IMG/VR virus record: IMGVR_UViG_2695420382_000004
Length of the DNA: 11,938 nucleotides
From: a virus
Taxonomy: Duplodnaviria; Heunggongvirae; Uroviricota; Caudoviricetes
Direction: 5' to 3' (one strand)
This document shows, piece after piece, positions 1 to 11,938 of this stretch (position 1 is the first letter of the stretch; each line of letters opens with the position of its first letter). The translations under genes and the position numbers were made by a program. Below the pieces are notes generated by a model, which saw only the letters and a list, made by a program, of their open reading frames with translations, made no database searches and had not been told where the DNA came from.

Positions 1-2184
1 CTGAAAATAGCCCGGCGTCAGCTCAATCCGCGACAGCGCTGCCGGTGCGGCAATCCGGAACGATACCGACGCCGGATCGCCCTGCTGCCCCCACGCATTT
101 ACTGCCCGGACTGTCAGCCTGTAGTTCCCCAGCGCCAGTTGTGTGAAGCGGTAAGTGGTTTCCGTCGTCCGGGCCGTGCTGACCAGCCGCTCACTGCCGT
201 CATCCGCTGTTACGGTCAGACGGAGCAGGAAGCTCACGCCCTTCACCACCTTCGGCGTGTCCCAGCGCGCCAGCACCTGATATTCCCCGCTGTCTGCGGT
301 GACTTCGGCAGTCAGGTGCTGCACCGCTGGCGGCGTGACACCATTCACCGTGCCGCTCTGGTCGCCGTCAAAGTGCGCCCCGTTATCCACGATGGCTTCT
401 TTTTCCGGCACATGCTGCACGGCGGTGATGGCATACGTGCCGTCGTCGTTCTCACGGATACTCACGCAGCGGAACAATCGCTGGTGCAGCGTCGGCAGCT
501 TCAGCCCCCACACGCTGTATTCAGCAACACCGTCAGGAACACGGCTCACTTTTACCTTCACGCCGTCGGTGACGGACTGGACCTCCACGCTGACCGGATT
601 CCCCTGCCCGTCAACCAGGCTTATCAGCGTGGTGCCGGAGGATGGCAGCGTGATTTCACGGTCGAGCGTCAGCGTCCGGGTCTGGCTGTTCACCGCCAGC
701 ACGCGCCCGCCGGTGCGGATACCGGCATAGTCATCATCGCAGATTTCAATGACATCGCCCGGTACATGACGAAGCCCTTCAGCACCCACGCTGAAATCCA
801 CGGTCTGCGTCTCCAGCAGTTCCGTTTTAATCAGCCACAGCCCGGCGCGGTGTGCCTGCCCCCGGCTGGTACAGCCAAAGGCATCCATCTTCGTGACGTT
901 ACGACCGTAACGGACAATGGCCTGCGTATCCTCCACAAGCTCTGTCGCCGTCTCCCAGCCGTTATCCGGGTCAATCCAGTTCACCTCAACGGCATTATGG
1001 CGGTCTTTCAGGGCGCTGAAACTGTAGCGGAACGGCGCGCCATCATCCGGCATCACCACATTACTGCGGTTATAGGCCCACACCTTATCCGACTGTCGGT
1101 CCTGCACGAACGTCAGCGTCTGCCCGTTCCATACCGGCATACAGCGCATCGCCGAGCAGAAATCACTGAGCACATCCCACGCCTTGCGCTGTGTGGTCAG
1201 CCAGGCATTACAGGTGATGCGCGGCTCCGTGCTGCCAAAGCCGTCCGGCACCGACTGGTCACAGTACTGGCCGATGACATACAGCGCCCATTTATCCACA
1301 TCTGCCGCACCAAGACGTTTCCCCATGCCATAGCGCGGATGGGTCAGCATATCCCACAGACACCAGGCCATGTTGTTGCTGTATGCCGGTTTTAACGTTC
1401 CGTCCCAGATACCGCTGTATTGCCGCGTCTGCGGATTATAGTTCGACGGCACCTGCAGAATGCGCCCGCGAAGATGATAATTACGGCTCACCTGCTGGCT
1501 GCCGAACTGCTCCGAATCCACCTGTACGCCGACCAGTGCCGTGTTCGGGTAGCACTGTTTCACATCGATGATTTCGGTGTATGACGACCAGAGCGTTTTG
1601 TTCTGCAGCTGGTCTGTGGTGCTGTCCGGCGTCATTCTGCGCATCCGGATATTAAACGGGCGCGGCGGCAGGTTATCCACCACCACCGAGGCCAGATACT
1701 GCGAGGTGGTTTTGCCCTTAATGGTGATGTCTTTTTCCGTCACCCAGCCACCGTTACGCTGTATCTGAACCAGCAGGCGAACTTCAGACGGATTCCTGTC
1801 TCCCTTTGAGGTGGTTTCCACCAGTGCCTGTACACCGAAGGTAAAACGCAGTCGGTCAATGTTTGCCGACGTGATGGTCCGGGTGATCGGCGTGTCATAT
1901 TTCACTTCCGTACCCAGCACCGTCTCGGAGCCGGAGGATTCAAATCCCTCCGGCGGTGACTGCTCCTGCTCACCTGCCCGGAACACCACCGTGACGCCGG
2001 AGATGTTGGTATTCCCCTCACTGTCCAGCACCGGCGTACTGTTCAGCAGCACGCTTTTTAATCCATCCACCGGACCTTCAACCGGCCCTTCGCTGATGGC
2101 ATCGATCACACTCAGCAGCTGCGTGGACTTCAGGTTGTCCTTCGCTTCGCGCGGGGTATGCCCCTTACTGCTGCCTTTACCCAT
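1..2184 (-). CDS. J: Tail tip host-specificity protein J (central tail fibre), N-terminal 728 codons; 3' end lies beyond the window start
   Basis: ATG at 2184..2182 on minus strand; my translation reads MGKGSSKGHTPREAKDNLKSTQLLSVIDAISEGPVEGPVDG... and, at the window edge (60..1), ...FRIAAPAALSRIELTPGYFQ, colinear with lambda gpJ as recalled. Open to position 1, so absent from the ORF track. About 60 bp gap after I, as in lambda. Confidence 0.93.
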   Translation of the reverse strand, partial: MGKGSSKGHTPREAKDNLKSTQLLSVIDAISEGPVEGPVDGLKSVLLNSTPVLDSEGNTNISGVTVVFRAGEQEQSPPEGFESSGSETVLGTEVKYDTPITRTITSANIDRLRFTFGVQALVETTSKGDRNPSEVRLLVQIQRNGGWVTEKDITIKGKTTSQYLASVVVDNLPPRPFNIRMRRMTPDSTTDQLQNKTLWSSYTEIIDVKQCYPNTALVGVQVDSEQFGSQQVSRNYHLRGRILQVPSNYNPQTRQYSGIWDGTLKPAYSNNMAWCLWDMLTHPRYGMGKRLGAADVDKWALYVIGQYCDQSVPDGFGSTEPRITCNAWLTTQRKAWDVLSDFCSAMRCMPVWNGQTLTFVQDRQSDKVWAYNRSNVVMPDDGAPFRYSFSALKDRHNAVEVNWIDPDNGWETATELVEDTQAIVRYGRNVTKMDAFGCTSRGQAHRAGLWLIKTELLETQTVDFSVGAEGLRHVPGDVIEICDDDYAGIRTGGRVLAVNSQTRTLTLDREITLPSSGTTLISLVDGQGNPVSVEVQSVTDGVKVKVSRVPDGVAEYSVWGLKLPTLHQRLFRCVSIRENDDGTYAITAVQHVPEKEAIVDNGAHFDGDQSGTVNGVTPPAVQHLTAEVTADSGEYQVLARWDTPKVVKGVSFLLRLTVTADDGSERLVSTARTTETTYRFTQLALGNYRLTVRAVNAWGQQGDPASVSFRIAAPAALSRIELTPGYFQ

Positions 2185-2244
2185 TCGTCATGCTCCATAA
2201 ACGATAAAACCGCCCGGAGGCGATTTCACATAAAACATTTTGCA

Positions 2245-2916
2245 TCAGCGACCAATCACCACAACCTGACCACCGTCCCCTTCGTCTGCCGTGCTGATCT
2301 CCTGAGATACCACACGTGACCCCACGCGCATTTCACCATACAGAACAGGCATAACATTGCCCTGGGCAACCATGTTATCCAGTGAGGAGAAATAGGTGTT
2401 CTGCTTACCGTTATCCGTTGTCTGTGTGCGGGGAGTTCTGGCTTTCGGTGCCAGCATCTGAGCCACACCGCCGAGCACCATACTGGCACCGAGAGAAAAC
2501 AGAATGCCGGTCATACCACCGGCACCAATGGCAGCCCCCCATGCTGCAAGGGTGGCTCCGGCGGTAAAGAATGATCCGGCAATGGCGGCTGCTCCCAGGA
2601 CAATCTGGAATACACCACCTGACTTGGCCCCGGCGACTCTGGGAACAATATGAATCACAGCGCCGTCAGGCAGAGCCTCATGTAACTGCGCCGTTAATCC
2701 GGACGTGCTAACATCCTGCCCGGCAATACGCACCTGATACCAGCCGTCGCTCAGCTTCTGACGAAACGCAGGGAGCTGTGTGGCCATCGCCCGGATGGCT
2801 TCGGCACCCGTTTTCACACGAAGGTCGATGCGGCGGCCAAATCGTTGCAAATCCCCGTAAAGGCAGATGCGTGCCATGCCCGGTGACGCCAGAGGGAGTG
2901 TGTGCGTCGCTGCCAT
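2245..2916 (-). CDS. I: Tail assembly protein I (223 aa); C-terminal Gly/Ala-rich hydrophobic segment
   Basis: 223-aa ORF colinear with lambda gpI as recalled; its 5' end overlaps the 3' end of K by 103 nt in another frame, the same overlap length I recall for lambda K/I. Confidence 0.9.
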   Translation of the reverse strand: MAATHTLPLASPGMARICLYGDLQRFGRRIDLRVKTGAEAIRAMATQLPAFRQKLSDGWYQVRIAGQDVSTSGLTAQLHEALPDGAVIHIVPRVAGAKSGGVFQIVLGAAAIAGSFFTAGATLAAWGAAIGAGGMTGILFSLGASMVLGGVAQMLAPKARTPRTQTTDNGKQNTYFSSLDNMVAQGNVMPVLYGEMRVGSRVVSQEISTADEGDGGQVVVIGR

Positions 2917-3557
2917 TTGTCGGTATACCTCTCTCGTTTGCTCAGTTGTTCAGGAATATGGTGCAGCAGCTCGCCGTCACCACAGTAAATGGCGGCATGA
3001 TTCGGCACCGATGAACCAAAACAGCACAGCAGCACATCGCCCGGCTGCGCCGCTGACAACGGCACCTGATACAGCCCTGTGGCCTCCAGATTATCCAGAT
3101 AGAGATTCTGACCGTGACGCCACCAGTCATCCTCACGATGAAAATCCGGCATCTCAATCCCCGCCAGATGGTAAGCATCCCGGAACAGCGTGTAACAGTC
3201 CGTCACCCCGTGCTCAAAGCGCCGCCCGGTAAGATGTGGCACACAGCGGAACTTGTGAATCGCCCCCCGGCAGACCAGCCACCACGGCAAATCACTCTGC
3301 ACCTGCAGCCGCCGGTCGGCCTCACTCAGCCAGGGCAGACCACCGGGGTGGCTGTGGACCAGTGCCACAATCTCACCCTGCATCTCTGCCTGCAGCCAGT
3401 CTTCCGGCGACATACGGAAATACGCCTCCGGCTCACCGGAGATATTCACGCAGGGGAAATATCTTTCCCCCTCCGGCGTTCTTACCACGAAGCCGCACGA
3501 CTCCGCTGGAGCACATCGCCGGGCGTGCGCCAGAATCGCTGATTCTGTCTCTGTCAT
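2814..3557 (-). CDS. K: Tail assembly protein K, copy 1 (247-aa form; the 199-aa lambda annotation corresponds to internal Met49); JAMM/MPN+ motif plus NlpC/P60-like region
   Basis: Starts MTETESAILAHARRCAPAESCGFV..., colinear with lambda gpK as recalled. Codons 68-81 (3315..3356) read HSHPGGLPWLSEAD, fitting HxHx7Sx2D. Starts 5 nt after the L stop. Confidence 0.9.
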   Translation of the reverse strand: MTETESAILAHARRCAPAESCGFVVRTPEGERYFPCVNISGEPEAYFRMSPEDWLQAEMQGEIVALVHSHPGGLPWLSEADRRLQVQSDLPWWLVCRGAIHKFRCVPHLTGRRFEHGVTDCYTLFRDAYHLAGIEMPDFHREDDWWRHGQNLYLDNLEATGLYQVPLSAAQPGDVLLCCFGSSVPNHAAIYCGDGELLHHIPEQLSKRERYTDKWQRRTHSLWRHRAWHASAFTGICNDLAAASTFV

Positions 3558-3562
3558 GGGAT

Positions 3563-4261
3563 TTACTGCGAAAGTTTGTTAATGGAAAGGAAGCCGCCAA
3601 AGTTGCCGACGTTATTGCGAAACTTACAGCCACTCAGGCATTTGCTGCATTTATCCTTCGTGATGTCGGACGTTGGCTGGTCATATTCATCCGCGACCGC
3701 CGGACCGTGATAACCGCACTCATCGCCGCGATAGGTCCAGGTGCAGGTGTTGGCCAGCATGATACGTCCCGGAAAAACAGCGCCATCTGTTTCCGTCGGC
3801 GTGGACAGTACAAAAGAGGCACTCACCGCGCTCAGTTCGCTGCACTGCTCAATGCGCCAGCGGCTGATCACCTCCTGCTCCGGATCGGCGTCACTGTTTC
3901 CGTTGACGAAGTTCACCGCATCCAGAAAACGGGCGTAAACCTTACGCCGGACCACCGTTCCGCCGACCAGACTCTGTAGATCTTCCGCCATCCCGGTGAC
4001 CATACCGTACAGGTTAGAAACCATCAGCGTGGGGCGCGTACTGGTGCCTTTGCCATTCAGTTCAAAACCACTCCCCTGAATGGGATACGGCTGATACTGT
4101 CGCCCCTGCCAGGTGACCGGCTCACCTTTTTCGTTCTGCTCATTACAGAAAAAATAACGTTCTCCACCGACCTCTGTCAGATCGATTTCCCAGAGCACCA
4201 CGCTGGCCGACTGCTCCGCACGGGTGCATTCATTCAGTGTTTCCTGCCGGATATCCTGCAT
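3563..4261 (-). CDS. L: Minor tail protein L, copy 1 (232 aa), C-terminal Cys cluster
   Basis: 232-aa ORF starting MQDIRQETLNE..., length and sequence match lambda gpL as recalled; C-terminal cysteines (...RGDECGYHGP...DKCSKCLSGC...). Start ATG overlaps the M stop by 1 nt (TGATG). Confidence 0.92.
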   Translation of the reverse strand: MQDIRQETLNECTRAEQSASVVLWEIDLTEVGGERYFFCNEQNEKGEPVTWQGRQYQPYPIQGSGFELNGKGTSTRPTLMVSNLYGMVTGMAEDLQSLVGGTVVRRKVYARFLDAVNFVNGNSDADPEQEVISRWRIEQCSELSAVSASFVLSTPTETDGAVFPGRIMLANTCTWTYRGDECGYHGPAVADEYDQPTSDITKDKCSKCLSGCKFRNNVGNFGGFLSINKLSQ

Positions 4262-4590
4262 CAGTTCACCACCTGTTCAAACTCTGCGCTGAACTCAACA
4301 CGCAGCATACTGACCCGCGACGACCATTTTGCGCAGGTCACCTTTATCTGCCGCCACTCATAAGGCGGCGTCCACAGAAAGGCTTTCCAGCCCCCGTGCT
4401 CTTCCAGAAACGACTCCAGTACCATGGCCTCCTCACGGGGGACAGAAAGCGTCACGCTGTACGTTTTCAGGTTGGCATTCAGCCCGGCAGGCGCTCGCTG
4501 GGAATAGCCATCACCAAAGCGCACCTTTCTTACAGAAGGGGCCGAAGCCACATCCATACCGGGTTTCACTTTCCAGCGGAAGGTTTTCAT
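4261..4590 (-). CDS. M: Minor tail protein M, copy 1 (109 aa)
   Basis: 109-aa ORF MKTFRWKVKPGMDV..., same length as lambda gpM and colinear with it as recalled; ATGA start/stop overlap with the upstream H-type reading frame. Confidence 0.92.
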   Translation of the reverse strand: MKTFRWKVKPGMDVASAPSVRKVRFGDGYSQRAPAGLNANLKTYSVTLSVPREEAMVLESFLEEHGGWKAFLWTPPYEWRQIKVTCAKWSSRVSMLRVEFSAEFEQVVN

Positions 4591-4907
4591 CGTCCACCTC
4601 CGGAGAACAGGCCACCATCACGCATCTGTGTCTGAATTTCATCACGGGCACCCTTGCGGGCCATGTCATACACGGCCTTCATCATCTGTGGACCTGGCAG
4701 ACCATTCGTACCGTCGTTCTGAATCACCACGTGATTGTTCTGATTAAAATTAATGCCTTCAGCCCGCCGCATCTGCGCCGGACTTCCGGCACCGCCCACA
4801 TAACCACCTTCCGCATAGCCGCGCATCAGCCGGTAGAGATTCCCCACGCCAATCCGGCTGGTTGCCTCCTTCGTGAAGACAAATTCACCACGGTGAACAA
4901 TCCCCGC
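4587..4907 (-). pseudogene. H: Tape measure protein H, C-terminal fragment only (last 106 codons plus stop); no N-terminus or start
   Basis: Reads AGIVHRGEFVFTKEATSRIGVGNLYRLMRGYAEGGYVG...ARDEIQTQMRDGGLFSGGGR*, colinear with the lambda gpH C-terminus as recalled. Homology begins immediately beside the 'n' at 4909; upstream of it the frame reads K-gene antisense junk. Confidence 0.85.
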
Positions 4908-4908
4908 T

Positions 4909-4909
4909 N
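4909..4909. other. Single ambiguous base marking an abrupt junction between K-internal sequence (copy 2) and H-internal sequence; probable contig or scaffold join
   Basis: Literal 'n' in the sequence. K copy-2 homology (...CCFGASVP) stops on one side and H C-terminal homology starts on the other, within about 2 nt. Confidence 0.7.
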
Positions 4910-4911
4910 TT

Positions 4912-5466
4912 CGGTACCGAAGCACCAAAGCAGCACAGCAGAATATCGCCCGCCTGTGCAGAGGACAGGGGCACCCGGTAAAAGCCGGTGACCGCCATAT
5001 TGTCCAGGTAAAGGTTCTGACCGTTGCGCCACCAGTCATCCTCGCGATGAAAATCCGGCATTTCAGTCCCCGCCAGATGATAAGCATCCCGGAACAGCGT
5101 GTAACAGTCCGTCACCCCGTGCTCAAAGCGCCGTCCTGTCAGATGTGGCACACAGCGGAATTTGTGAATGTCACCCCGGCAGACCAACCACCAGGGCAGT
5201 GCGCTTTTTATCTGCAACCGCCGGTCAGCCTCGCTCAGCCAGGGCAGCCCACCGGGATGACTGTGGACCAGTGCCACAATCTCCCCCTGCATCTCTGCCC
5301 GCAGCCAGTCTTCCGGTGCGATACGAAAATACGCCTCCGGCTCTGCGGAAATATTCACACAAGGGATATACCGCTCCCCCTCCGGCGTGCTTATCACGAA
5401 GCCGCACGACTCCGCAGGCGCACACCGCCGGGCATGTGCCAGAATCGCTGATTCAGTCTGTGTCAT
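4912..5466 (-). pseudogene. K: Tail assembly protein K, copy 2, truncated after about 185 codons (lacks the C-terminal ~60 aa including the NlpC/P60-like His region)
   Basis: ATG at 5466..5464, MTQTESAILAHARRCAPAESCGFVISTPEGERY...HSHPGGLPWLSEAD...LLCCFGASVP, then the 'n'. The JAMM motif is retained; the tail corresponding to copy 1 ...NHAAIYCGDGELLHHIPEQ... is missing. Confidence 0.85.
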
Positions 5467-5476
5467 AAACCGGGAT

Positions 5477-6175
5477 TTACTGCGAAAGTTTATTAATGGA
5501 AAGGAAACCGCCAAAATTGCCGACATTCCTGCGCAGTTCACACCCGCGCATGCACTTGCTGCATCTGTCCTTACGGATATCCGTGGTGGGGTTGTCGAAC
5601 TCATCCGCCACCGCAGGACCGTTATACCCGCATTCATCTCCCCGGTAATCCCACATACAGGTGTTCGCCAGCATGATGCGACCGGGAAACAGCGCCCCGT
5701 CCGTCTCGGTCGGTGTAGCCAGCACAAACGAGGCCGTCATGGCTGTCAGCTGCGACATCTGCTCCACCACCCAGCGGTCACTCAGCTCCTGCTCCGGGTC
5801 CGCCTCCGGATTGCCCGCAACGAAATTCACCGCATCCAGAAAACGGGCATACACCCGGCGGCGGACCACCGTGGCCCCCACCAGACTCTGCAGGTCTTCC
5901 GCCATCCCGGTGACCAGACCGAACAGATTGGACACCGTCAGCGACGGTCTGGCACTGCTGCCCCGGCCGTTCATCTCAAAGCCGCTGCCGTCAATCGGGT
6001 ATGCCTCATACTTACGCCCCTGCCAGGTGACCGGCTCCCCTTTTTCATTCAGCTCATTACAGAAAAAATACCGCTCACCACCCTGTACCGTCAGGTCGAT
6101 TTCCCAGAGTACCACCCGCGGTGACTGCTCTGACTTAACCGACTCGTTCAGACTTTCTTCGCGAATATCCTGCAT
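5477..6175 (-). CDS. L: Minor tail protein L, copy 2 (232 aa), C-terminal Cys cluster
   Basis: 232-aa ORF MQDIREESLNESVKSEQSPRVVLWEIDLT..., colinear with copy 1 and lambda gpL but clearly divergent from copy 1; cysteines conserved (...RGDECGYNGP...DRCSKCMRGC...). Confidence 0.92.
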   Translation of the reverse strand: MQDIREESLNESVKSEQSPRVVLWEIDLTVQGGERYFFCNELNEKGEPVTWQGRKYEAYPIDGSGFEMNGRGSSARPSLTVSNLFGLVTGMAEDLQSLVGATVVRRRVYARFLDAVNFVAGNPEADPEQELSDRWVVEQMSQLTAMTASFVLATPTETDGALFPGRIMLANTCMWDYRGDECGYNGPAVADEFDNPTTDIRKDRCSKCMRGCELRRNVGNFGGFLSINKLSQ

Positions 6176-6504
6176 CAGTTCACCACCTGCTTAAACTCCG
6201 CGCTGAACTCAACGCGCAACATCCCGACCCGCGCAGACCACCCGGCACAGGTCACCTTTATCTGCCGGTATGCATAGGGTGGCTTCCACAAAAATGCCTT
6301 CCAGCCACCGTGCTCTGCCAGGAACGCTTCCAGATGCCGGGCCTCCTCCCGGGTCACGGAAAGCGTCACCCTGTATGTTTTCAGGTCAGCATTCAGCCCT
6401 GCCGCCATACGCTGTGAGTACCCGTCACCAAAACGCACTTCACGCACCGATGGCTGCGAGTTCACCTCCATATCCGGCTTCACTTTCCAGCGAAAGGTTT
6501 TCAT
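6175..6504 (-). CDS. M: Minor tail protein M, copy 2 (109 aa)
   Basis: 109-aa ORF MKTFRWKVKPDMEV...; about 21 of 109 residues differ from copy 1 by my hand count; ATGA overlap with the H stop. Confidence 0.92.
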   Translation of the reverse strand: MKTFRWKVKPDMEVNSQPSVREVRFGDGYSQRMAAGLNADLKTYRVTLSVTREEARHLEAFLAEHGGWKAFLWKPPYAYRQIKVTCAGWSARVGMLRVEFSAEFKQVVN

Positions 6505-9222
6505 CCACCGCTCCCTGATAACATACCGCCATCACGCAACTGCAGCCGGAGTTCATCCTGTGCCCCCTTGCGGGCCATCTCATACACCGCTTTCATCAGC
6601 TGCGGCCCTGCCCGCCCGTTGGGGCCGTCGTTCTGAATCACCACGTGATTGTTCTGATTAAAATTAATGCCTTCAGCCCGCCGCATCTGCGCCGGACTTC
6701 CGGCACCGCCCACATAACCACCTTCCGCNNNNNNNNNNNNNNNNNNNNNNNNNNNNNNNNNNNNNNNNNNNNNNNNNGTTCTGAATCACCACGTGATTGT
6801 TCTGATTAAAATTAATGCCTTCCGCCCGCCGCATCTGCGCCGGACTTCCGGCACCGCCGACATAACCACCTTCCGCATAGCCCCGCATCAGGCGGTACAG
6901 ATTGCCGACACCAATCCGGCTGGTCGCCTCCTTCGTGAAGACAAACTCCCCGCGATGAACAATCCCCGCAGGTTCATATTTACCCCCCGTCCCCGTAAAT
7001 CCCCCGGTCGCGAAATGGAAGTTCGCCGCCGCAGCCTGAATGGCCGTCCCCGTGGAGGCAGACGCACCACCACCGAAAGCACCGCCAATGGCGCTGCCGA
7101 TACTCCCGACTATCCCCACCATCGCCTGCTTCAGAAAAATCTCTGTCAGCATGGACAGCACAGAACGGGTGAAACCACGCCAGTTCTGTTCGCTGCCGAT
7201 CAGCATCGCTGCCATATTCTGTGCAATACCGTCAAAGGTCTGCGTGGCCGCGTTTTTAACCTGCGAAAAACTGTCCGTCGCACTTTCCGCCCACTCGCCC
7301 CAGCCGGACTTCATCCCGGCCATCCAGCTTCCACGAAGCTGCTCCTCCGCAGACCAGGTGTTCTTCAGTGCAGATGTGGCCTTCGCCAGCGCAGCCGGAT
7401 TATCACCGTACACCTCACGAAGGCGCTGCTCTTCCGACTCCCGCTGCGCCTGACGGTCGGTGAGTCCGCGGGCTTTTGCGCTGATTGCCGCCTGCTTCGC
7501 GCTCTGCTGCTGTTCAAACCGCGCCGCCTGCTGTGCCAGCTCATTCAGCCGTTTCTGGTGTTCAATCTTGTCGCCCAGCTCAGCCAGCTGGCGTTTGTAC
7601 TCCAGCGTTTCTTTCTCATGGGCCAGCAGGGATTTTTCCTGCTCAGATAACTGCCGTTTCGTGGCGGCCTCTTTCAGGACCACATACTGATTTTCCGCTT
7701 TCCATAAATCACGGCGCTGCTGGCTGATTTTTTCATTCGCACCGCTGTGCTTCTCCAGCGTCCTGAGCTCAGTTTCAAGCGCCAGCAGGGCTGCATGCGC
7801 CTGGTCTTCCTGGCGCTCACCGGCAGACACCTTCACACCGGACGGCTTTTTCTGCGTCGACTCATAATCCTTTTTTGCCGACGCCATCAGCGTGTTGTAA
7901 TCCGCCTGCAGGATTTTCCCGTCTTTCAGGGCCTTATTCAGCTCTTCCTGCCGGGCGGTATATTTCTCCAGTGGCGTCAGCAGGCGCTCATACGCCTTCT
8001 GCGCCTCTCCGGTATACTTCAGCTGTGACGACTCACGCTCAGCCCTGTCCCTTGCCGCCAGTTCACCGGCTTTTTCCATATCCGACTGCAGCGTTGCCGC
8101 TGCCAGACCCAGACGGGCATTTTCCCGGTCATCCCATGCGCCCTGAAGGTTGGCCCGGAAAGAGGAGGTTTTACCGCGGCGCTGGCTCCGACTCTGGTAC
8201 CACTGCCATTTTTTATCCGCCTCATCAAATGCCTTCTGCGCACTGGCGAGCATATCCGCTGAGGATTCCGGACGACCGATATCCAGAATGGCATCCCACA
8301 TCGATTTGAATGCCTTCCCTGTTTTATCCGCCCAGGTCTCCAGTGTTCCCATGTTTTCTTTCAGGCGACGGGTCTGCTCATCAAAGCCTTTCGTGGCGAT
8401 ATCGTTCGCCGCCTGCAATGCCCCGGCCTCGTCTCCGGAACGCTGCAGCTGTGCAACATACGCAATCTGCTCTGCCGTCACGTTACGGAACTGGCGCGCC
8501 ATCGCCATCAGTCCCGACGTCGGGTCAGTGGTCAGCTTCCCGAAGGCTTCAGCGACTTTATCCACCTCCACACCGGATGCAGACGCAAAACGCGCGACAC
8601 TCTGGTTGATGGCATCAAACTGTTCACCACCACGCACACCGGCATTCACCAGGGCTGCCAGTGACTCTCTCGCCTGGTTAAACGTCAGCCCTGCTGCCTG
8701 CCCGGCTCTTGAGAGAGTCAGCATACGATCGGCAGTCAGTCCGGACTGATTACCGGAAAGAACCAGGGTTTTATTAAACGCTGAAAGCGTGGAATCTCCC
8801 TGGTACCAGGCGTACACCAGTGCACCTGTCGCCACCGCCAGCGAGGTGACCCCGACCATCGGCAGGGTGATCGCATCGGCAAGCCCCCTGAACATGGGGA
8901 TCATCCCGCCGAAGGAGTCCTTCACCTGACCGCCCTGTTGCAGCAGGATCAGCCAGGGATTCTGACCACCGGCAAGCTGCGTGGCGATATCCGTAAACTG
9001 TGCGGGCAGGGTTCGCATGGCCGCTTTATACTGCCCGACGGAAATCCCGGCTTTTTGTGCAGCCAGCGCCTGGCGGCTCAGGCCCTGTTCAACAGCACTG
9101 GCGGTTTTTCTGGCGTCGGTATCCAGACCTGAAAAATGACGCCTTACCCGGCTCATCTGCTCATCGAAACGGACAGCATCCAGACTCAGGTCAATAACAA
9201 GATCACCAACCGGCTGGGACAT
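6501..9222 (-). CDS. H: Tail tape measure protein H, interrupted by an N-run and a duplicated 99-bp flank; about 857 aa once the duplication is collapsed
   Basis: Starts MSQPVGDLVIDLSLDAVRFDEQMSRVRRHFSG..., colinear with lambda gpH (853 aa) throughout as recalled. The 70-aa ORF 6501..6713 is its C-terminus (…DGPNG…MLSGSGG*). Arithmetic: 2722 nt minus 49 N minus 99 repeated nt = 2574 = 3 x 858, in frame. Confidence 0.9.
6630..6876. repeat. 99-bp direct repeat (6630..6728 and 6778..6876, 2 mismatches) flanking the N-run; a third copy lies at 4716..4814
   Basis: Read directly: gttctgaatcaccacgtgattgttctgattaaaattaatgccttc[a/c]gcccgccgcatctgcgccggacttccggcaccgcc[c/g]acataaccaccttccgc. The pre-gap copy is identical to 4716..4814; the post-gap copy differs at 2 positions. 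Confidence 0.9.
6729..6777. other. Assembly gap (49 N) inside the H coding sequence
   Basis: Run of n characters; the ORF-track translation shows X's followed by a frame change. Confidence 0.95.
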
Positions 9223-9667
9223 ATCTCACACCTCCCGGAATCCCCGCTGAAGCCATCATTAATGCGGCATCATCCACCATGACATCCGCCACATCCGCAG
9301 ACGATAAAATATCGCGCCCTCCGTCCCCACCGAACCGGACGCCTCCGGCAAGTCCTGCCGCTTTCTGCATCAGCATTTTGTCCTCATCCGGCCTCTCCAC
9401 CTGCTCTTCCTCATGCCGGGGGACAAGCAGACTGAAATCAGAGGGATGCATATCCGGATCGCAAAAAAACAGGCTGAGTACAGCGTACGTCAGCCCGGAA
9501 AAATGCATATCCAGCTGGGTATCCTGAAAATAATGCGTGCGGTAAAAACGGTGCCAGTCGGCATATTCGGTGGATGTCATCCCGGCAAGCATGGCGCGCC
9601 AGTCGGGTCTCCCCATCTCACGCGCCAGTCTGAGGGCAAAGTTCAGCTCGCCGTCGAAGACTTTCCC
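9203..9667 (-). CDS. T: T-frame portion of the gpG-T tail assembly chaperone fusion, reached by -1 frameshift from G; not an independent gene
   Basis: ORF in the -1 frame relative to G (9643-9203 = 440, 440 mod 3 = 2) running from the slippery site to a stop at 9203; genomic position between G and H as in lambda. The in-frame Met at 9616 is probably not used. Confidence 0.8.
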   Translation of the reverse strand, partial: GKVFDGELNFALRLAREMGRPDWRAMLAGMTSTEYADWHRFYRTHYFQDTQLDMHFSGLTYAVLSLFFCDPDMHPSDFSLLVPRHEEEQVERPDEDKMLMQKAAGLAGGVRFGGDGGRDILSSADVADVMVDDAALMMASAGIPGGVRYVPAGW

Positions 9668-10074
9668 GCAGAAAAATCATCATCAGTCAGCGTGTTATTT
9701 TTCGCCACTTCAGTAATATCAGTATCCGGACGAACAGCTTCGATCATCCCGGACAGGCACAACACCACGTCTTCCGCCCGGGCAATGGCATCGGCAGGCC
9801 AGGTGGTGAGCACTTCCTGCTCTATCTTCATCACGGCCTCATTCATTGACGGTGACTGCGTTTTCTGTGGATGGTTATGCCACAGGGACATCGCCACCAG
9901 AAACGCGCCGGTTCTGACGAGATCTTCCACGCTTACCTGCAGGTTGCCGCTGGATTCTGCCTGTTCTGCACGCCGTTTCAGGAGGGCAAGATGCTCGATA
10001 CGCTGCAGCGCAGACAATTCGGAAAGCGTGACAGACACACCGTTATATTCAAATTGTTCTGTTTTCAGAAACAT
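9643..10074 (-). CDS. G: Tail assembly chaperone G (143 aa)
   Basis: MFLKTEQFEYNGVSVTLSELSALQRIEHLALLKRRAEQAES..., colinear with lambda gpG as recalled; GGAGG Shine-Dalgarno 5-9 nt upstream of the ATG (minus-strand acGGAGGtaatacATG). Confidence 0.93.
   Translation of the reverse strand: MFLKTEQFEYNGVSVTLSELSALQRIEHLALLKRRAEQAESSGNLQVSVEDLVRTGAFLVAMSLWHNHPQKTQSPSMNEAVMKIEQEVLTTWPADAIARAEDVVLCLSGMIEAVRPDTDITEVAKNNTLTDDDFSAGKSSTAS
9661..9667 (-). other. Programmed -1 ribosomal frameshift slippery heptamer G GGA AAG (G frame) / GGG AAA G (T frame)
   Basis: Plus strand 9661..9667 is ctttccc, so minus strand is GGGAAAG. The G frame reads GCG GGA AAG (…SAGK…), 6 codons before the G stop; established lambda G-T mechanism. 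Confidence 0.85.
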
Positions 10075-10087
10075 GTATTACCTCCGT

Positions 10088-10840
10088 TTACCCTGCAGCG
10101 CCCGCTTCAGTAACGGTGACTTCAGCCACTGCGGCGAACTGACCATTTCCGCTCACCACAGGGATCTGCACCTTACCTGTCGCCACGCCGTTTACCGTAA
10201 TTGTCATATCTTTCACACTAATGGTGGCTTTCGACGGATCGGCGGAAACCGCTCTGAACGTCTTGTCGGTTGCACTTTCCGGCTCAAAAGAAACCGTCAG
10301 GGTGGTTGTTTTCCCTTTTGCCACCGTACCGGATGTCGGCGTCACCTTAATCGCACTGACCGGCGTAATTTTGCTGCGTTCTTCCGCTACAGAAGGTTTA
10401 CCCACGTTAGTGACTTTCACCGTGCGGGTGATCACTTCTTTCGCCGTCACGGCCTTACCGATACTGCTGACCCAGCCACGAAACACATCCACCGTGCCAT
10501 TCGGAAAACGGATTTTATAGGCCCGGACATCGCCGCTTTCAAACCAGCCTATAAGCCCTTTCTGGCCTTCCTCTCCCGGTTTCCAGGCCAGCGTAAAACT
10601 GGTATCACCTGCAGATTTCTGCCCCTGCCCGGTCGCGCTCCAGTCCGCGTCTTCATCATCCAGGTAGTTATCATCATAGGATTCAGCCGTCATCTCGCCC
10701 GGCGTCAGATCCTTCACCTTAGCCAGTCGCTGCCAGTCATCGTCTGACAACGGGTTTGCATAAGCATCAGCCTTGCCGTTGTAAACCCACAGAGTGGTAC
10801 CGGCACCTTTTACCGGCTCCAGGGGATTTGGTGTTGCCAT
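10088..10840 (-). CDS. V: Major tail tube protein V (250 aa) with C-terminal Ig-like region
   Basis: [42 protein letters not shown]..., colinear with lambda gpV as recalled; the C-terminal roughly 90 aa are Thr/Val/Ser-rich (…[12 protein letters not shown]…[22 protein letters not shown]…), typical of a Big_2-like domain. Confidence 0.93.
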
Positions 10841-10847
10841 ATCGTCC

Positions 10848-11243
10848 TCACATCTCGTATGTAATGGAATAAGTCAGATCCGCAGAGCTCCATAACGCCA
10901 TATCGTCATCACGACGATACTCATAGCCCTGCGTAACCATCGTGGTAATCAGTCCTGCCAGTGCAGGGATCGCAGTCATCGCCGGATAAATCCGGCTTTC
11001 CATCCACTGATCGAGCTCCGAATCAGGTACCTGTGCCGGTAAAAACACCTCAATATGCAGTGTGGCCCGCCAGGTATCTGCATCCAGCTCTTCACCGGTA
11101 TACTCTGCATCCGTCAGATAAACCGCGATCGCAGGAAAATCCTCTTCGTCAAAAACAACGGGGCGACCATCAAACAGCGTCGCCCCGTGTTCATGCTGCT
11201 CGAGTGCATCCAGCACTGCGGCACGAATGTCAGTGTGTTTCAT
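10848..11243 (-). CDS. U: Tail tube terminator protein U (131 aa)
   Basis: [44 protein letters not shown]...LTYSITYEM, same length as lambda gpU and colinear with it as recalled. Confidence 0.93.
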
Positions 11244-11815
11244 CGTTTTATCGCAATCCTCAGTTGTTGTTTCAGCGCGTATGCCAGTTCTTTAGGCAGG
11301 CGTTCACGCCGGATACGGTCAACATTCTCATCAAATGCCTGTTTCAGTGGGGCCGCCATCGGGATTTTCACCACCTGAATGGGAAGGCGATTACGCTTTT
11401 TCCTTCCCTTGTCGTCATTGCCCTCCTCATATCTGGCCTGGGGAAGACGTTGCATAACATGCCAGCGCCCATTATTTAATCGCTGGATAAATGCCCGCTG
11501 ATAACGATGCTGACCGGCTTTGAGTATGCTGTTCGGACGACGCCCCAGCATTCTGATCCCCAGCTTAATCACAGGGAGATCACCGCGGTTAACGATAATT
11601 CTGGCATTCGGATTTCTGACCGTCGCCCGTTTCAGTCTGGACCGTTCCTTTACCAGTTTCCGTCTCACCCTGGTTTCCCGGGCAACCTGTGACGAAGACT
11701 GATTAATCGCCGTTGTGGCCACGCGGTTAATGGTCATTGCAGAAGCAGCCGGAATGGCGTTTTTACGAACCCGGCTCAGATTGTCAATCGCCTGATCAAG
11801 CCCTTTTATCGCCAT
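11240..11815 (-). CDS. Z: Tail completion protein Z (191 aa)
   Basis: MAIKGLDQAIDNLSRVRKNAIPAASAMTINRVATTAINQSSSQVARETRVRRKLVKER...RIAIKR, colinear with lambda gpZ as recalled; ATGA overlap with the U start. Confidence 0.92.
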   Translation of the reverse strand: MAIKGLDQAIDNLSRVRKNAIPAASAMTINRVATTAINQSSSQVARETRVRRKLVKERSRLKRATVRNPNARIIVNRGDLPVIKLGIRMLGRRPNSILKAGQHRYQRAFIQRLNNGRWHVMQRLPQARYEEGNDDKGRKKRNRLPIQVVKIPMAAPLKQAFDENVDRIRRERLPKELAYALKQQLRIAIKR

Positions 11816-11829
11816 AATTCACCCTGCGT

Positions 11830-11938
11830 TTATCGTCGCCGGTTAACTGCGGGTGGTTGCCCACGGTTGAGCCAGAGATAACAGCTGCCCCCGTCATCCG
11901 GAGATGTCAGCGCCAGTGATATAAGACGGTAATTCGCC
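11830..11938 (-). CDS. FII: Head-tail joining protein FII, C-terminal 35 codons plus stop; 5' end beyond the window
   Basis: Hand translation of the minus strand gives ANYRLISLALTSPDDGGSCYLWLNRGQPPAVNRRR*, matching the lambda gpFII C-terminus (...SPDDGGSCHLWLGRGVPPAVNRRR) as recalled; 14-nt spacer before the Z ATG. Confidence 0.8.
   Translation of the reverse strand, partial: ANYRLISLALTSPDDGGSCYLWLNRGQPPAVNRRR

What the first reader, a model, noticed from the sequence alone, without database searches (positions are those of the whole stretch)
4880..4940. Single 'n' at an abrupt K-internal to H-internal breakpoint
K copy 2 is colinear with K copy 1 up to ...CCFGASVP and then, exactly at the n (4909), the sequence switches to the last 106 codons of an H gene in a different frame. 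A breakpoint that falls on the only isolated ambiguous base in the window is more typical of a contig join than of biology. If it is real, K2 lacks its C-terminal roughly 60 aa and the H fragment has no start codon, so both are pseudogenes.
Basis: seen in the sequence. Interest (0 to 1): 0.5.

Follow-up and report, generated by a model that had tools for sequence, protein, structure and literature searches.

The report
False contig join in prophage tail
The lone 'n' at 4909 marks the place where assembly software glued together contigs from two different lambda-like prophages, so the truncated K gene and orphan H fragment are most likely assembly artefacts, not biology.

Summary
The window is an entire 11,938-bp draft-genome record (CXCV01000128.1, GCA_001252355.1), made of three pieces: A (1-4908), a single N, B (4910-6728), 49 Ns, and C (6778-11938).

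A carries J'-I-K1-L1-M1 and the last 106 codons of H from one lambdoid prophage type. B and C carry K2'-L2-M2-H2-T-G-V-U-Z of another type, about 80% identical to A.

Each piece matches finished E. coli genomes as one uninterrupted block that runs on past the break. No junction-spanning match was found in 5,426 complete E. coli genomes, 50,697 phage records, IMG/VR, GTDB representatives or JGI metagenome contigs.

The second gap is demonstrably spurious. B and C overlap by 99 nt in finished genomes, and merging them restores an intact 857-aa tape-measure gene.

An independent draft contig 99.96% identical to A has its own single N. It sits 98 nt further into H and joins a different K-internal point of a different paralogue. 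Three more IMG/VR contigs show single-N joins of the same kind.

Interest is low. The only residual doubt is that no reads could be inspected.

The parts
4909..4909 (.). Single N: placeholder at a scaffold join between contig A and contig B
   Evidence: It is the only isolated non-ACGT base. All database alignments stop at 4908 or start at 4910.
1..4908 (-). Piece A: tail-tip module of prophage type 1. It holds the J N-terminal fragment (2184..1), I (2245-2916), K1 (2814-3557), L1 (3563-4261), M1 (4261-4590) and the last 106 codons of H (4587-4907).
   Evidence: A aligns as a single piece at 97.2% to complete genomes, which continue into H. It is 99.96% identical to IMG/VR contig L055. Pfam families are given.
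4587..4908 (-). 3' end of the tape-measure gene H of prophage type 1, cut off by the end of contig A
   Evidence: It aligns to the last 322 nt of annotated tape-measure genes. 121 of 121 IMG/VR loci that share A's last 36 nt continue with H sequence (GGCTCATATTTG...).
4910..6728 (-). Piece B: K2' (4910-5466, the first 185 codons only), L2 (5477-6175), M2 (6175-6504) and the H2 3' end (6501-6728), all of prophage type 2
   Evidence: B aligns as a single piece at 99.6% to E. coli ST648 and other complete genomes, where K runs on for 187 more nt. It is 80% identical to A 3001-4814.
4711..4814 (.). 104-nt block in A that is identical to the last 104 nt of B (6625-6728); the likely source of the false read-pair link
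6625..6728 (.). End of contig B. It carries the A-type bases at 6675 and 6711, so the contig end is chimeric.
   Evidence: B's last 99 nt equal A 4716-4814 and differ from the complete-genome references at exactly those two bases.
6729..6777 (.). 49-N scaffold gap that should not exist
   Evidence: In L001 and L003, B maps to 7001-8819 and C starts at 8721, a 99-nt overlap. Merging B and C restores an 857-aa H ORF.
6778..6876 (.). Start of contig C: the second copy of the 99-nt overlap (98% to 6630-6728, 100% to the references)
6778..11938 (-). Piece C: H2 (to 9222), T (9203-9616), G (9643-10074), V (10088-10840), U (10848-11243) and Z (11240-11815) of prophage type 2
   Evidence: C aligns as a single piece at 99.2% to complete genomes that carry the same prophage as B. 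Pfam families are given.

Best explanation
The junction at 4909 is a scaffolding artefact in a short-read draft assembly. The source genome carries at least two lambda-like prophages whose tail genes are paralogous: about 80% identical overall, with short identical blocks.

Contig A ends inside gene H of prophage 1. Contig B begins inside gene K of prophage 2 and is the true neighbour of contig C. B's 3' end was extended with reads from prophage 1, so its last 104 nt are identical to A 4711-4814.

Inferred step: read pairs anchored in A whose mates fall in that shared block were also placed on B's end. That would give an 'A then B, same orientation, strongly negative gap' link. No overlap exists between A's end and B's start, so the scaffolder stacked B after A and wrote a one-base N placeholder.

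The same cross-talk left the B-C gap unclosed, as 49 N flanked by a 99-nt duplicate.

Shown here: the three-piece structure, the spurious B-C gap, the chimeric end of B, the normal continuation of both flanks in other genomes, and the recurrence of such joins in other drafts. Inferred: the exact software and the read-pair route to the false link.

Consequence: K2 is most likely a full-length gene whose 3' end lies on another contig. The H fragment is the 3' end of a full H gene. The apparent partial tandem duplication H'-M-L-K' is not in the genome.
For: 1. The window is the complete 11,938-bp WGS record CXCV01000128.1 of draft assembly GCA_001252355.1. It holds two N features.

2. The 49-N gap is demonstrably false. 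B and C map to one prophage in the complete genomes CP008697 and CP018991 with a 99-nt overlap. Merging them gives an intact 857-aa tape-measure ORF, the length of the reference gene.

3. B's terminal 99 nt carry the two A-type bases, whereas C's copy equals the references. This shows paralogue cross-contamination at contig ends in this very record.

4. A, B and C each align end-to-end as single pieces to finished genomes, and those genomes continue past the break.

5. 121 of 121 IMG/VR loci with A's last 36 nt continue into H.

6. No match spans 4909 in 5,426 complete E. coli genomes or 50,697 phage records. The junction pattern has 0 hits in IMG/VR, GTDB representatives and JGI metagenome contigs, while the same pattern does find the window itself.

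7. L055, which is 99.96% identical to A and ends at the same base in J, continues H for 98 nt beyond the window's break. It then has its own single N, joined to a different K-internal point of a different K-L-M paralogue.

8. Five of the six single Ns in the fetched loci lie at colinearity breaks. In all five, the two joined pieces share exact blocks of 74-675 nt on the same strand; in four of the five one such block abuts the single N, and in the window it abuts the 49-N gap at the far end of B.

9. Published descriptions say that SSPACE and GapFiller are greedy and can make false joins, that joined contigs receive N gaps (PMC5320598), and that a gap is closed only if the two extensions overlap and the length fits the estimate (PMC3446322).
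Against: No reads, assembly graph or AGP file could be inspected, so the absence of spanning reads is not shown.

The start of B (4910) is not in an exact repeat with A, so why contig B begins exactly there is unexplained. I assume a branch with a further prophage copy.

The assembler and scaffolder of this record are not documented. The accession was not found in the literature or in the held supplement text of the Sanger pipeline paper. The convention 'single n for a negative gap without overlap' (SSPACE) is from my own memory and could not be confirmed in the paper library.

Absence from other genomes does not by itself exclude a strain-specific rearrangement.
Confidence: 0.9

Rival explanations
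1. A real illegitimate recombination or deletion between two lambdoid prophages lying in tandem fused K2 (after codon 185) to the last 106 codons of H1. The N would then be merely a poorly called base at a true junction. Both genes would be pseudogenes, and the hybrid prophage would carry two M-L modules.
For: The gene order on the minus strand (Z..H2-M2-L2-K2' | 'H1-M1-L1-K1-I-J) is what a deletion between two co-oriented prophages would leave. Such events are possible in principle, and no read data exclude one.
Against: The break falls exactly on the only isolated N, about 1 in 12,000 by chance. The other gap in the same record is proven spurious, with a chimeric contig end. The junction is absent everywhere else. 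The fusion protein with Lys or Asn at the X is not among about 15 billion proteins. A 99.96%-identical A contig has the same kind of single-N join at other breakpoints and with another partner, which fits a pipeline artefact and not an inherited junction.
Confidence: 0.04
2. A and B are truly adjacent, but an unassembled repeat such as an insertion sequence lies between them, and the N stands for that missing sequence.
For: Contig ends often coincide with multi-copy elements, and N marks unknown sequence by definition.
Against: This would still need a K2-internal/IS/H1-internal structure, which is not seen in any finished genome. The flanks show no IS end or target duplication; they are plain K and H coding sequence that continues normally in relatives. 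A roughly 1-kb insert would normally get a sized gap, as at 6729-6777, not a single N. That last point is inference.
Confidence: 0.03
3. A genuine tandem segmental duplication of the H'-M-L-K' segment within a single prophage.
For: On the plus strand, 3001-4814 and 4910-6728 form a head-to-tail repeat with a period of about 1.9 kb.
Against: The copies are only 80% identical. Each is 97-99.6% identical to a different, widespread prophage type, so they are paralogues from different phages and not a recent duplication. No relative has the duplication.
Confidence: 0.01

Closest known systems
Scaffolder mis-joins and negative-gap placeholders in short-read draft assemblies (SSPACE/GapFiller-type pipelines, e.g. 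the Sanger prokaryote assembly pipeline, PMC5320598)
   Same: The record is a draft scaffold. N sits exactly at a colinearity break. The joined contigs are paralogous copies that share exact blocks. The neighbouring gap is flanked by duplicated sequence that gap filling failed to merge. The pipeline paper itself states that greedy joins can be false.
   Different: The software used for this record is not documented here. The link to that pipeline is inferred from the ENA-style accession and the pattern.
Bacteriophage lambda tail-tip gene block H-M-L-K-I-J
   Same: The order and families match: TMP_2 and Tape_meas_lam_C (H), Phage_min_tail (M), Phage_tail_L (L), Prok-JAB + NlpC/P60 (K), Lambda_tail_I (I) and GpJ domains (J). 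The window also holds Z, U, V, G and T, with the GGGAAAG slippery site near the end of G.
   Different: The record appears to hold one and a half copies of the block. That is the artefact: each real prophage should have one.
Mosaic lambdoid prophages of E. coli (multiple paralogous copies per genome)
   Same: Complete E. coli genomes hold a median of 2-4 and up to 21 places matching these tail genes. That is the condition which breaks and mis-joins short-read assemblies.
   Different: Genuine mosaic junctions fall between homologous positions (gene replaced by its counterpart). This one joins K-internal to H-internal sequence out of frame.

Membership tests
Scaffolding artefact (false contig join marked by N) | The sequence is a draft scaffold assembled from several contigs | tested here: met
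   The window is the whole record CXCV01000128.1 of GCA_001252355.1, with an N and a 49-N run.
Scaffolding artefact (false contig join marked by N) | The ambiguous base coincides exactly with the loss of colinearity | tested here: met
   All alignments end at 4908 or start at 4910.
Scaffolding artefact (false contig join marked by N) | Each flank continues uninterrupted in finished genomes, and the junction is absent from them | tested here: met
   Searches show the continuation. Searches show the absence.
Scaffolding artefact (false contig join marked by N) | The joined pieces share repeat or paralogous sequence able to mislead read-pair linking | tested here: met
   A 104-nt identical block is shared by A 4711-4814 and the end of B, and B's end carries A-type SNPs.
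Scaffolding artefact (false contig join marked by N) | The same kind of join recurs at different positions in independent assemblies of related sequence | tested here: met
   L055, L069, L070 and L039.
Scaffolding artefact (false contig join marked by N) | No sequencing read or proper pair spans the join | not testable with these tools
Lambda gpK-type tail tip protein (Prok-JAB + NlpC/P60) | Both domains present | tested here: met
   This row is for K1. It has Prok-JAB (5e-14) and NLPC_P60 (5.8e-13), both above the gathering scores.
Lambda gpK-type tail tip protein (Prok-JAB + NlpC/P60) | Both domains present in K2 as recorded | tested here: not met
   K2' (185 aa) has Prok-JAB only. NlpC/P60 is cut at ...SVP, just before the NHAAIY segment of K1. 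This is attributed to the contig end, since the complete-genome homologue is 247 aa.
Lambda gpH tape-measure protein | TMP_2 and Tape_meas_lam_C domains; one continuous ORF | tested here: met
   The C-piece H has both domains. The ORF becomes continuous (857 aa) only after the spurious gap and 99-nt duplicate are removed. The 106-codon fragment in A has no Pfam hit of its own, but it aligns to the 3' end of annotated tape-measure genes.
Genuine tandem segmental duplication | The copies derive from one another (near-identical, or closer to each other than to copies elsewhere) | tested here: not met
   The copies are 80% identical to each other but 97-99.6% identical to two different prophage types in other genomes.

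The most novel reading that the evidence does not exclude
The junction is real. A strain-specific illegitimate deletion fused two co-oriented lambdoid prophages, K2 codon 185 to H1 codon -106. That would create a hybrid prophage with two M-L modules, a JAB-only K remnant and an orphan H tail, and the N would be only a bad base call.
Probability: 0.04. Interest if true: 0.2.

Novelty: not a real feature. Interest (0 to 1): 0.04.

Why it matters
As biology it does not matter. The truncated K, the orphan H fragment and the apparent duplicated M-L block should not be interpreted as pseudogenes or as a duplication.

The practical value is a caution. In short-read draft genomes with several lambdoid prophages, single-N joins can stack paralogous tail-gene contigs head to tail. 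The result is fake partial tandem duplications, fake truncated genes (K2', and the 849-aa + 70-aa split H) and spurious gene calls. Such records have propagated into derived collections: four similar cases were seen among about 120 IMG/VR loci. Anyone mining prophage tail modules for mosaicism, pseudogenes or gene fusions should break scaffolds at every N first.

Tried and rejected
1. Unmerged identical overlap of two contig ends. Rejected: the two copies are only 80% identical.

2. B as an alternative branch that leaves A at 3000, i.e. prophage 2 shares A's K 3' end, I and J. Not supported. B's first bases are not in an exact repeat with A. Complete genomes with B-type sequence have their own K 3' end, 83-84% identical to A. 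A synthetic A(2701-3000)+B(4910-5209) chimera has no match above 92.7% in 5,426 complete genomes.

3. A continuing directly into C. Rejected: A 4716-4907 is only 93% identical to C 6778-6969, and L055, the near-identical relative of A, has a different H.

4. Looking for the junction elsewhere. There were 0 hits in GTDB representatives (two patterns), IMG/VR and JGI metagenome contigs. The fusion protein with K, N or X at residue 186 was not found by exact look-up. The X form is nevertheless on record through the look-up of encoding contigs, so that look-up apparently does not index X-containing sequences.

5. Literature. The accession was not found in any paper or in the held supplement text of the Sanger pipeline paper. 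No paper in the library states the SSPACE 'single n' convention, so that point rests on my own recollection.

Full report
**What is in the sequence**

The window contains 50 non-ACGT characters: one isolated N at 4909 and a run of 49 N at 6729-6777. All real genes lie on the minus strand and form a lambda-type tail module:

- Z (11240-11815), U (10848-11243), V (10088-10840), G (9643-10074), T (9203-9616)
- H (9222 downwards; TMP_2 and Tape_meas_lam_C domains)
- M2 (6175-6504), L2 (5477-6175) and a K gene starting at 5466
- after the N, the last 106 codons of an H gene (4907-4590, stop 4589-4587)
- M1 (4261-4590), L1 (3563-4261), K1 (2814-3557; Prok-JAB + NlpC/P60), I (2245-2916)
- the first 728 codons of J, running off the record at base 1

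**Check of the observation**

K2 aligns with K1 residue for residue up to ...CCFGASVP (residue 185 of 247). The N is the third base of the next codon. The H fragment is read one base out of frame with K2.

On the plus strand, the self-alignment of 4910-6728 with 3001-4814 starts exactly at 4910/3001 and is 80% identical. 4716-4907 also matches 6778-6969 at 93%. The description is therefore accurate. The coincidence of the only isolated N with the breakpoint would happen about once in 12,000 by chance.

**Origin of the window**

An exact look-up of the K2' product, including its X, returns a single contig. It is NCBI record CXCV01000128.1 of assembly GCA_001252355.1, 11,938 bp long. The window is thus a complete draft WGS scaffold made of three pieces: A = 1-4908, B = 4910-6728 and C = 6778-11938.

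**Each piece is normal on its own**

| Piece | Best match in complete E. coli genomes |
|---|---|
| A | single block, 97.2% identity (e.g. AP027748); the tape-measure gene continues for a further 2.2 kb |
| B | single block, 99.6% (e.g. strain ST648, CP008697); the K gene is 247 aa and continues 187 nt beyond B's first base, followed by I and J |
| C | single block, 99.2%, to the same prophage as B |

A and B/C therefore represent two different, widespread lambdoid prophage types. They are not copies of one another.

**The second gap is demonstrably spurious**

In CP008697 and CP018991, B maps to 7001-8819 (respectively 4281-6099) and C starts at 8721 (respectively 6001). B and C therefore overlap by 99 nt. 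In the window these 99 nt occur twice, at 6630-6728 and 6778-6876, separated by the 49 N.

The two copies differ at two bases, 6675 and 6711. C's copy equals the references. B's copy carries the bases of piece A, and the last 104 nt of B are identical to A 4711-4814. Merging B and C with the overlap removed restores an 857-aa tape-measure ORF, the size of the reference gene.

So in this very record, a contig end was built with reads from the paralogous prophage, and the gap closer failed to merge the two ends. This fits the published GapFiller rule that a gap is closed only if the extensions overlap and the length agrees with the estimate (PMC3446322).

**The junction at 4909 exists nowhere else**

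- A query spanning it (4500-5320) hits 4,359 records of 5,426 complete E. coli genomes. Every single-piece alignment stops at 4908 or starts at 4910. The four places that 'cover' over 80% are two pieces lying 1.4-1.6 kb apart in the normal K-L-M-H order.
- The same holds for 50,697 phage records.
- The junction pattern, allowing 0-20 or 0-3 filler bases, has no hit in GTDB representative genomes, IMG/VR or JGI metagenome contigs. It does find the window itself.
- All 121 occurrences of A's last 36 nt in fetched IMG/VR loci are followed by H sequence, GGCTCATATTTG....
- The fusion protein with Lys or Asn at the ambiguous codon is not among about 15 billion proteins.

**The same artefact recurs in other drafts**

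IMG/VR contig L055 (UViG_2698536312_000003) is 99.96% identical to piece A and ends at the very base where the window begins. It continues H for 98 nt past the window's break and then has its own single N. After that N comes a K-L-M copy that starts 60 nt from the K stop. That copy is a third paralogue, 85% identical to A and 81% to B.

Among the fetched loci, six contain a single N. Five of these, including the window, lie at colinearity breaks that no N-free relative spans. One (L093) is an ordinary ambiguous base spanned by 24 relatives.

L069 (I-internal | n | L-internal) and L070 (L-internal | n | H-internal) are also backward jumps that mimic partial tandem duplications. In all five cases the joined pieces share exact same-strand blocks of 74-675 nt. 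In four of the five such a block abuts the single N; in the window it abuts the 49-N gap at the far end of B.

A join of the same kind, at different coordinates and with different partners, in near-identical sequence is what a pipeline artefact predicts. It is not what an inherited rearrangement predicts.

**Most likely mechanism**

The structure above is shown; the route to the false link is inferred. The genome has at least two lambdoid prophages. Contig A ends in H1. Contig B (prophage 2) ends in a 104-nt block identical to A 4711-4814.

Read pairs with one mate in unique A sequence and the other in that block can be placed on B's end. That gives a link 'A then B, same orientation, gap of about -1.8 kb'. 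No overlap exists between A's end and B's start, so B was stacked after A with a one-base N placeholder. This reproduces the observed geometry, in which B is the homologue of A's last 1.9 kb.

The pipeline paper for a large share of ENA bacterial drafts states that SSPACE and GapFiller are greedy, can make false joins, and place N between joined contigs (PMC5320598). That this record came from that pipeline is an inference. The 'single n for a negative gap' convention is my recollection and is not verified here.

**Rivals**

- A real deletion fusing two tandem prophages would give the same gene order. It requires the N to fall on the junction by chance and ignores the proven artefacts next door and in L055. 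I give it about 4%.
- A true adjacency with an unassembled insert gets about 3%.
- A genuine tandem duplication is contradicted by the 80% identity of the copies, each of which is 97-99.6% identical to a different prophage type elsewhere.

**What remains unexplained**

I cannot say why contig B starts exactly at 4910. It is not an exact repeat with A. The idea that prophage 2 shares A's K 3' end found no support. A branch with a further prophage copy in the same genome is the likely reason, given that complete genomes hold a median of 2-4 and up to 21 places matching these tail genes. This cannot be tested without the other contigs.

**Verdict**

It is not a real biological feature. Interest is low, and confidence is about 0.9, limited only by the lack of read-level data.

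Noticed in passing
window 6630-6876: The 49-N gap (6729-6777) is flanked by a 99-nt near-identical direct repeat. In finished genomes the two flanks overlap, so the record holds 148 spurious bases that split and frameshift the tape-measure gene into 849-aa and 70-aa calls. Merging the flanks gives an intact 857-aa ORF.
   Followed up: yes
window 6625-6728 (bases 6675 and 6711): The end of contig B carries the sequence variants of the other prophage (piece A). The contig end is therefore chimeric, built from paralogous reads.
   Followed up: yes
window 139-1395 (+): A 418-aa ORF called as a gene in the public record has no Pfam family. It lies antisense to an intact 728-codon J fragment (2184..1) that has GpJ domains. 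It is almost certainly a spurious gene call, and no gene call for the partial J appears in the record's gene list.
   Followed up: partly
window base 1 / L055 base 10503: The window begins at exactly the base where an independent, 99.96%-identical IMG/VR contig ends. This suggests the same repeat boundary inside gene J breaks both assemblies.
   Followed up: partly
L055:5497, L069:3113, L070:4577, L039:8757: Four IMG/VR viral contigs carry single-N joins between paralogous tail-region contigs (K|H, I|L, L|H, lom/tail fibre|unknown). These artefacts have propagated into a curated viral genome collection.
   Followed up: partly
window 9661-9667 (-): A GGGAAAG heptamer lies just upstream of the stop of G (9643-10074), with T (9203-9616) following. 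This is the position of the lambda G-T programmed -1 frameshift site. The heptamer count in the window is not above chance, but the position fits.
   Followed up: no
window 11905-11938: The last 34 nt of the record fall outside the alignment to the complete-genome prophages, which ends at 11904. This may be another divergent or repeat-bounded contig end.
   Followed up: no
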